64,000 nucleotides of DNA. Source: Eledone cirrhosa (Eukaryota). Both the position numbers and the translations under genes were made by a program. Every line of letters starts with the position of its first letter. Position 1 is the first letter of the stretch. The stretch is from positions 203,236,001 through 203,300,000 of the forward strand of contig OZ024740.1 in assembly GCA_964016885.1 (NCBI GenBank), written 5' to 3'. The notes under the pieces are model-generated. The model was not told where the DNA came from and made no database searches. It saw only the letters and a program-made list of their open reading frames with translations. Positions 3,628 through 6,330 of the stretch are shown in pieces.

Positions 3628-3812
3628 GAAAAAGTATGACCCCGACGGCAGAGCTCAAGCTGTTTCGACGGCTATTTCTGGAATAGCCGTCGAAACGGCT
3701 TGAGCTCTGCCGTCGGGGTCATACTTTTTCCTATTTCCCACTCTACTACCCTAAGTATTGAGTACTCTGGTGCGTTATGGTCCATCTGGTTCCTTACCAC
3801 AATTCCTTTGTT
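3628..3812. mobile_element. Fold-back PLE end 1: 103-bp palindrome (3628-3730) plus unique tail, flanked by (TA)n
   Basis: 51-bp arms around 3679 with 2 mismatches; contains GTC GAAAC; related single copy at 19601-19660. Confidence 0.75.
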
Positions 3813-3998
3813 ATATATATATATATATATATATATATATATATATATATATATATATATATAGAGAGAGAGAGAGAGAGAGAGAGAGAGAGAGAGAGAG
3901 AGAGAGAGAGAGATAAAGATAGATAGATTTATAAAGATATATATATACTGTAGATATATATATATATATATATATATATATATATATATATATATATA

Positions 3999-4551
3999 TG
4001 TAGATAAATCTACCAAGAGTTTACGGTAGTGTCCAATCCGTATGAAGAACTCAATGTAATCCGGATATCATGGAAAGAAGAGATGCAATGAAAAATCACT
4101 TTCGGTGAAAGATAAACGGAATACAGAGTCAAGATAAAATATTAAAAAAATAATGAATAAAACAATGAAACAGTTCCTTATATTAAACAAAAAAAGTTCA
4201 TTATTTAACGATCGTTTCTAGGATATATATGTGTTAGAATTGGCATGCATATTCAACAGATCTATGTACAAAATTATACAAAATTATACAAACTATCAAA
4301 ATTAAATATACATACCAACACATATATATGCCGTCTTCAGAATTCTGAAGACGGCATATATATGTGTTGGTATGTATATTTAATTTTGATAGTTTGTATA
4401 ATTTTGTATAATTTTGTACATAGATCTGTTGAATATGCATGCCAATTCTAACACATATATATCCTAGAAACGATCGTTAAATAATGAACTTTTTTTGTTT
4501 AATATAAGGAACTGTTTCATTGTTTTATTCATTATTTTTTTAATATTTTAT
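3999..4551. mobile_element. Fold-back PLE end 2: spacerless 418-bp palindrome (4134-4551) plus tail, flanked by (TA)n
   Basis: Centre ..GTCTTCAGAA|TTCTGAAGAC..; the ORF track gives identical peptides on both strands; each arm has CTGAAGA-long stem-GAAAC GATC GTT. Confidence 0.9.
4343..4484 (+). ncRNA. Hammerhead-like motif with extended stem II (mirror copy on minus strand, about 4201-4342)
   Basis: CTGAAGA cggc atatatatgtgtt..aacacatatatat ccta GAAAC GATC GT T; palindromic stem III ACGATCGT; stem I truncated by the inversion. Confidence 0.55.
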
Positions 4552-4565
4552 ATATATATATATAT

Positions 4566-5957
4566 GCAAAAGTTCTATTTAAATTGTTGGGATACAACAA
4601 GCAAATATTATTATAACTGATATAAAGCACTCGACAAATATTTGGAGTAGATATACAATATTAATAAATGGAAACTATATTTATAAAACCATATTTATTT
4701 CATTATATATATTTCAAGGATACCAGGTAAAATCATGGTATGCCTTCATCAGACAAAATACAATATATAACAGTTTTACAAATAGATATTGACGTACCCT
4801 TTCAAAAAGGTGACCGGTGCTTTTGGAGGCCATCCGGATAGTGGTTTGTTTACTTTAGTAAGTCATAGTGTTAAGAGTAAGTAAAAAGAGTAAGTACGGC
4901 TTATGTATCTATATGTGTGTGTTGACATACATATACATGTGTTATATGTTTTTTTTTGTGATTATATGTCTGTCTGTATATATGCATGAGTGACGCGTGT
5001 ATACCAATTGAAGATGCACACACATATCTATTCATGTATAGCTAAGAATTATGGGTGTGAATGTACAGGCTTACACATGCAGCTTTTGATTGCAGATATG
5101 CATAATTTAACAGCCATAAATGCAGAAAAGTTAATCCTATATATTTATATATATATACTAAAATGTGTTAATTAATAACACAGGGAATGTATAGCAATAG
5201 ATAAAAAATCACTTATGCTTTGTATGTATACATTATGTGCGGGAGTAGATATAATGTGTATTTTCTGAGTGAGTGAGTATATATATATATTTATGTATCT
5301 TTGCCTATGTATATGTGATATACGATAGATAATCTCTCTAGCAATATATATATTTTATAATGTTAAATTCCAATTTTTAATATATTGATCTCAATTTTTA
5401 AACTAAATATATAATCATAATTAAACAATGTGTAATTTCTCATATTATATATCTATATTCCATTCACGAATATTAATATTTCTAATTTTATTTATTCATT
5501 TCATCTCAATTGTTAACTCAACTTTATATGACATAACTTAAGGTTTTCGTTCTCTCCCCCCCTCTATCTATCTCTACATATCTCTCTCTTGAGTTCTTTC
5601 TCTGTCTGATGTTTTGATATCTCCCCGTTATTTTTCCTCTGTTCTCTTTTCTTTTTGCTTTCTTCTTTTTCTTTATCTATCTTTCCCTTTCTTTTCTCCA
5701 CGTTTCTCTCTCTCTCCATCTTTTTACTTACTCTTAACACTATGACTTACTAAAGTAAACAAACCACTATCCGGATGGCCTCCAAAAGCACTGGTCACCT
5801 TTTTGAAAGGGTACGTCAATATGTATTTGTAAAACTGTTATATATTGTATTTTGTCTGATGAAGGCATACCATGATTTTACCTGGTATCCTTGAAATATA
5901 TATAATGAAATAAATATGGTTTTATAAATATAGTTTCCATTTATTAATATTGTATAT
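4566..5957 (-). mobile_element. Fold-back PLE derivative 3: 239-bp inverted arms (4651-4889 and 5719-5957), ~830-bp spacer, tail 4566-4650
   Basis: Two mismatches found between arms by eye; both outer ends abut (TA)n; each arm carries a hammerhead motif. Confidence 0.85.
5848..5912 (+). ncRNA. Type I hammerhead ribozyme candidate (mirror copy 4696-4760, minus strand)
   Basis: tattttgt CTGATGA aggcatacca..tggtatcctt GAA ATATATAT A atgaaata: intact core, stem II, palindromic stem III, 8-bp stem I with G-U pairs. Confidence 0.65.
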
Positions 5958-6044
5958 ATATATATATATATAGTATAATATATATATATATATATATATA
6001 TATATATATATATATATATATATATATATATATATATATATATA

Positions 6045-6330
6045 TAGTATAAAAAAAACGAAAAATCAGTGATGCATCTGGACTCAGTGAGAAAATTTGG
6101 TCCAAAAGAATTGCATGTGTCCGAAGGAACCTGCAGCCGTAGAATCAGCCAGGTCCATACAGTGATCATGTCTCGAGCTACCTGCCGGCGAAACAATTGT
6201 AACACGCAATAAACTGAGTTCAGATGCATCATTGATTTTTCGTTTTTTTATACTATTCACACTCTGCTCTGGAAGAATATTGAGTGCTAATTTTGGCATA
6301 CCGCCTGTGGAAGCACCATAGCTACCATTA
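6045..6330 (+). mobile_element. Fold-back PLE end 4: ~43-bp inverted arms (6045-6088 and 6213-6255) plus tail
   Basis: Arms differ by 2 substitutions and 1 indel; spacer has degenerate GTGATCA tgtc..ggc GAAAC AATT GTA followed by AATAAA; abuts (TA)n. Confidence 0.7.

What the first reader, a model, noticed from the sequence alone, without database searches (positions are those of the whole stretch)
3628..6330. Four consecutive, mutually unrelated fold-back elements strung along one (TA)n tract, each ribozyme-associated
Seen: inverted repeats with 51-, 209-, 239- and ~43-bp arms lie end to end, separated only by (TA)n/(GA)n. All share one architecture: one arm continues into a 75-135-bp unique tail, the other stops at (TA)n, and each carries a hammerhead core or GAAAC half. 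Known: PLE pseudo-LTRs carry minimal hammerheads and often insert with an inverted 5' copy. Inference: this is a repeatedly hit landing site for several non-autonomous, retrozyme-like PLE families, possibly a hairpin-RNA/siRNA or piRNA source.
Basis: partly seen in the sequence, partly recalled or inferred. Interest (0 to 1): 0.8.

Follow-up and report, generated by a model that had tools for sequence, protein, structure and literature searches.

The report
Stacked Penelope-like retroelement fold-back insertions
The four hairpins are real but ordinary for this genome: each is a short head-to-head pair of end pieces from a high-copy Penelope-like retrotransposon family lying in TA repeats, and their shared layout likely records one insertion step in which both cut DNA strands are primed.

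Summary
Observation confirmed; interpretation half right. The four fold-backs (arms 49, 209, 239 and ~45 bp) are dispersed repeats of four families with no DNA similarity to each other. One 26-mer of E1 has 31,479 exact matches. Each family's end sequence lies downstream of an RT + C-terminal GIY-YIG ORF elsewhere in the genome. The ORFs carry motifs of the Hydra clade of Penelope-like elements (PLEs), already described from Octopus as (TA)n-inserting. So these are truncated copies of autonomous PLEs, not retrozymes or MITEs. The site is no special hotspot: 2 of 40 random 10-kb stretches hold three of these families within 2.7 kb. Only E3 keeps a whole hammerhead here. What is worth keeping is mechanistic. 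281 of 287 copy ends fall at two fixed sites per family. Inverted pairs carry one tailed and one tail-less arm (18 of 22 and 12 of 13 in samples not selected for this), and either arm may be longer. E1 arms stop at a sharp 5' wall, often with an extra G. I infer paired priming of both target strands on capped RNA. Hairpin-RNA or piRNA output is untested.

The parts
3430..3583 (-).
3585..3627 (.). (TA)n target tract
3628..3676 (-). E1 inverted, tail-less arm ending at the family's internal 3' site
3682..3730 (+). E1 direct arm: 3' half of a hammerhead only (stem II 3' strand, GAAAC, palindromic stem III)
3731..3811 (+). E1 tail (80 nt); a 26-mer of it has 31,479 exact matches in G000
3812..3999 (.). 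mixed (TA)/(GA)/(AT) spacer
4000..4133 (-). E2 tail
4134..4342 (-). E2 tailed arm: CUGAAGA core, long stem II, GAAAC; stem I 5' strand missing
4343..4551 (+). E2 tail-less arm, perfect mirror of 4134-4342
4564..4650 (-). E3 tail
4651..4889 (-). E3 short, tailed, inverted arm (second hammerhead copy at 4696-4760)
4890..5718 (+). E3 3'UTR, continuous with the tail-less arm; in other copies it leads upstream to the RT-GIY-YIG ORF
5719..5952 (+). E3 long, tail-less arm
5848..5912 (+). complete minimal type I hammerhead (8-bp stem I, CUGAUGA, 9-pair stem II, palindromic stem III)
5953..6047 (.). (TA)n spacer
6044..6088 (-). E4 short, tail-less inverted arm
6085..6256 (+). E4 direct arm starting at the family's 5' pile-up site; hammerhead-like fold 6110-6210 with a deviant 5' core
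6257..6338 (+). E4 tail, followed by (TG)n

Best explanation
Each of the four hairpins is a separate 5'-truncated, head-to-head insertion of a different Penelope-like retrotransposon family with Hydra-clade motifs, sitting in TA repeats, and each likely formed when the element's enzyme cut both DNA strands and primed two cDNAs. Shown: dispersed families, link to RT + C-terminal GIY-YIG ORFs, two fixed 3' end sites per family (internal site and tail end), TA flanks, one tailed plus one tail-less arm per pair, either arm longer, and a sharp 5' wall in E1. Inferred: one nicked strand primes at the tail-end site and the other at the internal site, helped by 3-5 nt of TA-like pairing; each cDNA stops early or runs to the capped 5' end of an RNA that starts at an initiator inside the pLTR; the two cDNA ends are joined head to head by microhomology or a few filler bases. 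Each insertion splits a TA tract and leaves TA at both sides, so strings of elements build up without any special locus. The hammerheads are passengers from the pLTR, mostly incomplete here, and the long perfect stems would be predicted to bury them.
For: Dispersed copies: 636, 45, 1778 and 2812 first-look candidates for E1-E4; 31,479 exact E1 26-mers, control 0. ORF links: E1 in L196 (89.8% to the window arm), E2 in L159 (93.8%), E3 in L139/L142/L143 and an intact 742-aa ORF in L202, E4 in L151/L156 (94.4%). Hydra motifs as listed by Craig et al. (PMC8557442 section 11): RWR, DKT, CxCx5C linker, one Cys in the GIY-YIG core, CxxC and CxH; RT fold with TERT among the top hits. Hydra-1_Obim from Octopus with (TA)n preference is in that paper's supplement. 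Ends: 281 of 287 arms in two classes, 264 of 287 followed by TA. Pairs: 101 of 111 mixed overall; 18 of 22 in E3 picked without regard to tail (p=0.002) and 12 of 13 scorable among 40 ORF-picked loci (p=0.002). Tail-less arm longer in 10, tailed longer in 4, equal in 4 E3 pairs. All four internal sites continue with TAT, and the E3 tail continues with ATATA into the ORF leader. E1 sample of 60: 46 with an inverted tail-less arm, 6 run 72 nt or more upstream, none ends between -18 and -71; base before +1 is G 9, A 1, C 7, T 8 where the natural base is C or T. In vitro precedent: PAc cleaves and extends both strands and starts at two sites that define the tail (PMC11167929).
Against: No biochemical test; the model rests on genomic footprints. 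10 of 111 pairs are not one-tail pairs, and the E1, E2 and E4 pair sets were partly selected with queries of this shape. 27 of the 40 ORF-picked loci could not be scored at both ends. The extra-G signal is weak in E2 (G 5, A 12, C 5, T 1) and E4 (G 4, C 4, A 2), and 2 of the 9 E1 cases can be templated by the other arm. E3 shows no 5' wall. Arms of a pair are more alike than unrelated copies and share rare variants, which fits two cDNAs from one source locus but also copying of one arm from the other. PAc's start sites were reported as not homologous to the target and as used alike on both strands. The E4-ORF link runs through interrupted copies and is the weakest. Pfam does not recognise the E3 ORF itself. 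Clade assignment is by motifs and by-eye comparison, with no tree.
Confidence: 0.72

Rival explanations
1. Same PLE origin, but the inverted arm is made by self-priming: the cDNA snaps back on itself, or an antisense template self-primes, and later deletions blur the lengths.
For: Snap-back junctions occur with R2 proteins, also after full-length cDNA (PMC11371274 passages). Self-priming on an antisense template was proposed for PLE palindromes (PMC3846280 passages). Arms share rare variants, and within-pair divergence is lower than between copies in all four families.
Against: A snap-back from a tail-primed cDNA cannot give a tail-less arm longer than the tailed one, yet this holds in the window's E3, in 10 of 18 mixed E3 pairs and in 8 of 12 mixed ORF-picked loci, where the ORF-bearing arm is tail-less and the short inverted arm has the tail.
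Confidence: 0.13
2. E1 and E2 have become dedicated non-autonomous, SINE- or retrozyme-like hairpin families that copy themselves from short RNAs using Hydra enzyme in trans.
For: 54 of 60 E1 copies are short and share a 5' wall; most E2 copies start within 10 nt of the core; very high copy number. Retrozymes were argued to derive from pLTRs (bioRxiv 10.64898/2026.07.22.740005).
Against: Hairpin junctions differ from copy to copy, so they are not inherited from a master hairpin. Long copies of the window's own E1 type exist (L269, 96.9%). Short copies lack a whole hammerhead and are not tandem arrays, which define retrozymes. Priming in the 5' pLTR of the normal mRNA would give the same short products.
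Confidence: 0.1
3. The cluster is a selected hairpin-RNA, siRNA or piRNA source locus, or a special landing pad.
For: Long perfect stems would form dsRNA if transcribed. piRNA-size RNAs map to rotifer PLEs. Four or five elements in 2.7 kb is the upper tail of the local density.
Against: No enrichment of neighbours (19 of 206 against 38 of 560, p=0.28). 2 of 40 random stretches hold three families in 2.7 kb and one holds four fold-backs in 5.5 kb.
Confidence: 0.03
4. MITEs/DNA transposons, or assembly chimeras.
For: Terminal inverted repeats in TA flanks resemble MITEs; no laid contig or read spans the whole stretch.
Against: Arms vary in length on the inside, only one has the tail, and they continue into RT-GIY-YIG ORFs. 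The same E2 and E3 ends next to TA, and other head-to-head breakpoints, appear in contigs of three public runs from two studies. Window arms differ at 1 (E1) and 2 (E3) positions.
Confidence: 0.02

Closest known systems
Hydra clade of C-terminal EN+ PLEs, incl. Hydra-1_Obim of Octopus bimaculoides (Craig et al. 2021, PMC8557442)
   Same: RT then GIY-YIG; RW[K/R] and DKT motifs, CxCx5C linker, no CCHH, CxxC/CxH; hammerhead in the 3' end; (TA)n insertion; inverted 5'-truncated copies; tail at one end.
   Different: Four families 35-51% identical in protein, none matching the published Hydra-1_Obim hammerhead row by eye; tails 80-137 nt instead of 30-40; 3'UTRs of 1.3 to about 4 kb instead of elements under 3 kb; tens of thousands of copies; true tandem pLTRs present in E3.
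Poseidon PAc of Anolis (Frangieh et al. 2024, PMC11167929)
   Same: Two RT start sites bounding the tail; both target strands cut and extended; AT-rich targets; hammerhead not needed for insertion.
   Different: Here both sites adjoin TA-like bases that match the target, and within one insertion the two sites are used once each; the paper reports no homology and no strand difference.
Minimal PLE hammerheads (Cervera and de la Pena 2014, PMC4209133)
   Same: Type I, palindromic stem III, U3-A8 core variant, motif pairs 100-700 bp apart on opposite strands.
   Different: Stem II is very long in E2 and E4; three of the four window elements carry incomplete or deviant motifs.
Non-LTR retrozymes (Cervera and de la Pena 2020, PMC7229834; Li et al. 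2026 preprint)
   Same: Short non-coding repeats with type I hammerhead sequence, pLTR-related.
   Different: Retrozymes are head-to-tail tandem arrays with a whole hammerhead per unit; these are head-to-head pairs that mostly lack one.
L1 twin priming (recalled, not from a call)
   Same: Both target strands prime cDNA, giving a 5' inversion joined by microhomology.
   Different: In L1 the inverted and direct parts are non-overlapping pieces of one RNA; here both arms copy the same region from two fixed start sites.

Membership tests
EN+ Penelope-like element | single ORF with RT followed by GIY-YIG endonuclease | tested here: met
   Intact 742-aa ORF in L202; RT fold, TERT at ranks 2 and 5; GIY-YIG-like motif in ORFs of all four families. 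Pfam does not hit the ORF itself; 1 of 16 aligned members hits RVT_1 and 1 GIY-YIG. No ORF lies in the window elements.
EN+ Penelope-like element | pseudo-LTR from partial tandem | tested here: met
   E3: pLTR runs through the tail into the ORF leader in L201, L202, L208, L209, L210 and in 17 of 40 ORF-picked loci. Not seen with an ORF for E1, E2, E4.
EN+ Penelope-like element | inverted 5'-truncated copy and tail at one end | tested here: met
   101 of 111 pairs; 12 of 13 ORF-picked.
EN+ Penelope-like element | hammerhead in the pLTR | tested here: met
   E3 type: 96.3% paired cells, 6 of 9 stem II pairs with two-sided changes, 0 of 500 shuffles, in 20 of 33 variants picked by a pattern that fixed the core. 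E1 long copies: U3-A8 core with position 7 free in 6 of 8 listed. E2 long copies: 9-bp stem I. E4: deviant core, inconclusive.
Hydra clade | RWK and DKT motifs | tested here: met
   RWR and DKT in E3's ORF; the N-termini of the other three ORFs were not in the stretches translated.
Hydra clade | CxCx5C linker, no CCHH, CxxC and CxH | tested here: met
   E1, E2, E3 ORFs; E4 linker read by eye, its CxxC interrupted by a stop.
Hydra clade | (TA)n insertion | tested here: met
   264 of 287 ends against 6.5%; 56 of 60 in the E1 sample.
Hydra clade | monophyly with published Hydra RTs | not tested
   Published sequences were only read in the supplement; no tree was built.
Non-LTR retrozyme | head-to-tail tandem units each with a complete type I hammerhead | tested here: not met
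   Head-to-head pairs; only E3 has a whole motif.
Non-LTR retrozyme | expressed circular RNA, self-cleavage | not testable with these tools
   Needs RNA data or an assay.
MITE / TIR DNA transposon | fixed-length TIRs at both termini, no RT link | tested here: not met
   Arms vary at the inner end, tail lies outside one arm, RT ORFs upstream.
hpRNA / piRNA cluster | small RNAs from the locus | not testable with these tools
   Needs small-RNA data.

The most novel reading that the evidence does not exclude
Hydra PLEs integrate by obligatory paired priming: an RT-endonuclease dimer nicks both strands of (TA)n, primes once at each of two fixed RNA sites by short TA pairing, and often copies only to the cap of an RNA started inside the pLTR hammerhead. 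This would explain tails, inverted pLTRs and palindromes in one step, and it has seeded on the order of 100,000 or more short perfect hairpins across this genome.
Probability: 0.5. Interest if true: 0.6.

Novelty: new member of a known kind. Interest (0 to 1): 0.3.

Why it matters
The locus itself matters little: it is one of thousands of such strings in this genome. The families matter modestly. How PLEs make inverted pLTRs and one-sided tails is named as open in the papers read, and this genome offers tens of thousands of recent footprints plus intact ORFs to test paired priming, target pairing and capped-RNA templates. It also suggests that many short 'MITE-like' or unclassified hairpins in such genomes are PLE ends, and that they are a large potential source of double-stranded RNA.

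Tried and rejected
Rfam: no match at gathering level in the window; only generic hairpin matches below gathering in 3400-6400, no hammerhead family. DNA search with the E1 tail alone gave 0 candidates because common words are skipped; replaced by an exact pattern count. Two patterns for a canonical CUGANGA core upstream of E1 found 0; explained later by the U3-A8 variant. I first read the ORFs as Nematis-like and dropped this after checking motifs. Pfam and PDB sequence searches did not recognise the E3 ORF. Sequencing runs: no RNA holder listed. Laying contigs and reads on 4000-5950 gave no spanning piece, and the short repeats at the E2/E3 junction were skipped. Test for two different source RNAs per insertion: 15 common-allele differences in 12,400 shared sites, 11 of them in E2, inconclusive. 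A strict hammerhead pattern missed E3 itself and was used only as a side check. Earlier-findings look-ups by place, words and sequence returned nothing. Paper searches for PLE twin priming (2 papers, listing only, neither on PLE mechanism by title and abstract start), pLTR promoters and cap-derived G (no supporting passage found) turned up no account of paired use of the two start sites; the library lacks most subscription papers.

Full report
Observation. The four inverted repeats are present as described. E1 has 49-bp arms with one mismatch, E2 a perfect 209-bp palindrome without loop, E3 239-bp arms with two mismatches around 829 bp, and E4 arms of about 45 bp at 93%. In each, one arm ends at TA repeats and the other runs on into a tail of 80, 137, 90 or 85 nt. 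They share no DNA similarity. The spacers are mixed microsatellites, E4 ends against (TG)n, and a fifth PLE fragment (E0) lies just to the left.

Copy number. The window lies in a 3.0-Gb animal genome, likely an octopod (inferred from Argonauta proteins among the named hits, and from the literature below). All four elements are dispersed repeats: 636, 45, 1778 and 2812 first-look candidates, 40 scored each. One 26-mer of the E1 tail has 31,479 exact matches, with 0 for the reversed control. Forty 10-kb stretches taken at round coordinates hold 12 E1-like, 8 E3-like, 5 E0-like, 3 E2-like and 0 E4-like insertions. A generic detector made 32 calls, about 28 distinct, in these 400 kb and found 3 of the window's 4.

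Link to autonomous elements. Longer copies tie each end to an upstream ORF with RT and C-terminal GIY-YIG motifs. E3: L139, L142, L143, 73 scored ORF matches at 86-100% and an intact 742-aa ORF in L202, whose leader follows directly on the pLTR tail. E1: L196 shows TA, inverted tail-less pLTR, truncated ORF, 3'UTR, tailed pLTR and TA, 89.8% identical to the window arm. E2: L159, ORF then about 4 kb of microsatellite-rich UTR then the pLTR at 93.8%. E4: L151 and L156, through interrupted copies. The four proteins are 35-51% identical to each other. A predicted model (pLDDT 74.5) matches RT folds, with TERT at ranks 2 and 5; Pfam does not recognise the ORF. The motifs (RWR, DKT, CxCx5C, a single Cys in the GIY-YIG core, CxxC, CxH) are those that Craig et al. 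give for the Hydra clade, almost all of whose families insert into (TA)n (PMC8557442; passages, section 11 and supplement hits seen). Their supplement lists Hydra-1_Obim from Octopus bimaculoides. No tree was built.

Hammerheads. E3 carries a whole minimal type I motif in both arms. Across 20 of 33 pattern-picked variants, 96.3% of cells pair and 6 of 9 stem II pairs change on both sides, 0 of 500 shuffles reaching this; the pattern fixed the core, and the copies are related. Long E1 copies have a U3-A8 core with free position 7 in 6 of 8 listed, a variant described by Cervera and de la Pena (PMC4209133, parts 1-2 of 4 read); the window's E1 has only the 3' half. Long E2 copies have a 9-bp stem I, whose 5' strand the window copy has lost. 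E4 has a plausible stem I but a deviant 5' core. Rfam finds none.

Ends. Of 287 arms away from locus edges (filter: at least 80% identity, 30 nt, reaching the 3' region), 281 end either at the internal site or at the tail end, and 264 are followed by TA repeats, against 6.5% of 20,000 random positions. All four internal sites continue with TAT in the template, and the E3 tail with ATATA. Frangieh et al. showed in vitro that a Poseidon protein cuts and extends both strands and starts at two sites that define the tail, but without homology to the target (PMC11167929, parts 1-2 of 4 read).

Pairs. Of 111 head-to-head pairs, the window's four included, 101 have one tailed and one tail-less arm (E1 45 of 49, E2 23 of 24, E3 18 of 22, E4 15 of 16). 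The E1, E2 and E4 sets were partly chosen with queries of this shape. The E3 set was not (p=0.002), nor were 40 loci picked by ORF, of which 13 could be scored at both ends and 12 were mixed (p=0.002). Either arm can be longer: in E3 the tail-less arm in 10, the tailed in 4, equal in 4. In 8 of the 12 ORF-picked pairs the ORF-bearing arm is tail-less and the short inverted arm has the tail. A cDNA folding back on itself cannot make that, so I prefer two separately primed cDNAs. Against this, arms of a pair are more alike than unrelated copies and share rare variants, which fits one source locus but does not exclude copying. A tail at only one end is known qualitatively; my searches found no account of paired use of the two sites, within a library that lacks most subscription papers.

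5' wall. I fetched 60 of the first listed E1 pattern matches on C1, skipping a few close neighbours. Forty-six have an inverted tail-less arm by the script's threshold. Six tailed arms run 72 nt or more upstream and none ends between -18 and -71 of a pyrimidine-pyrimidine-AGT site inside stem II. For arms starting there, the preceding base is G 9, A 1, C 7, T 8, where the natural base is C or T; 2 of the 9 G can come from the other arm. E2 and E4 pile up at similar sites with weaker G signals (G 5 of 23 and 4 of 10); E3 shows no wall. The site resembles an initiator (consensus recalled), Penelope pLTRs hold the promoter (PMC2377424 passages; PMC3846280 passages), and RTs can copy a cap as an extra G (recalled; no supporting passage found). 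I infer that short copies run to a capped RNA 5' end. That RNA may be the normal mRNA primed in its 5' pLTR or a short RNA from solo ends; the data do not separate these. Junctions differ between copies, so the hairpin is made anew each time.

Is the site special? No. The far side of the TA tract holds another family end in 19 of 206 cases, against 38 of 560 background tract sides (p=0.28). Two of 40 random stretches hold three of the five families within 2.7 kb, and one holds four fold-backs in 5.5 kb. Four or five in 2.7 kb is the upper tail; even a Poisson model gives about 50 such places genome-wide.

Artefact check. Contigs of three public runs (two studies) show the same E2 and E3 ends next to TA and other head-to-head breakpoints; no piece spans the stretch. 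The families are real; this exact string still needs long reads.

Comparison and verdict. Retrozymes are tandem arrays with a whole hammerhead per unit (PMC7229834 passages; bioRxiv 10.64898/2026.07.22.740005, part 1 of 5; its supplements could not be seen); that test fails. MITE features fail too. A recent repeat annotation of Octopus vulgaris lists active Penelope-like families and has no passage on hammerheads (PMC13282606 passages). Verdict: new families of a known kind at an unremarkable site, interest 0.3. The genomic footprint of paired priming and capped templates is the part worth following (probability 0.5, interest 0.6 if true).

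Noticed in passing
window 3430-3583: Fifth PLE end (E0) with a decayed hammerhead core; relatives follow a Neptune-like ORF (CX4CxxC linker) in L169 and L039.
   Followed up: partly
window 10395-13540: Another PLE insertion with 92-bp inverted ends in (TA)n and a Neptune-like ORF remnant (GIY-YIG, Pfam E 0.001; two Cys in the core) at 10927-12015.
   Followed up: partly
window 19805-30972 and 32759-35251: 11-kb (CCATCA)n-type satellite, then (CAC)n and (ACT)n arrays.
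   Followed up: no
window 43700-48330: Decayed non-LTR retrotransposon with RT domain (RVT_1 E 6.5e-21), L1/Tx1-like by appearance.
   Followed up: partly
window 55884-56867 (-): 328-aa frame with zf-RVT match, likely the 3' end of a restriction-enzyme-like-endonuclease LINE.
   Followed up: partly
window 61081-61140: One more hammerhead-like pattern match (stem I 5 bp, weak stem II).
   Followed up: no
L124 and L201/L202, just past the tail end: E2 and E3, unrelated in their pLTRs, share a short TGCTCCT motif a few bases beyond the tail end; possibly a protein-binding or priming signal.
   Followed up: no
L005, L019, L026, L027, L058, L095, L133, L143 flanks: Several more hammerhead-bearing fold-back families in TA tracts; in some the hairpin centre lies about 3 nt before the CUGA core, as in E2.
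   Followed up: no
L202:1075-3303, L201, L200: Intact or near-intact Hydra-type ORFs of 742-749 codons with an asparagine-rich stretch between RT and endonuclease, as described for rotifer PLEs.
   Followed up: partly
L240:7983-8092, L257:701-810: Long E1 copies with a C3-A8 mismatch in the hammerhead core, unlike the U3-A8 of most others.
   Followed up: no
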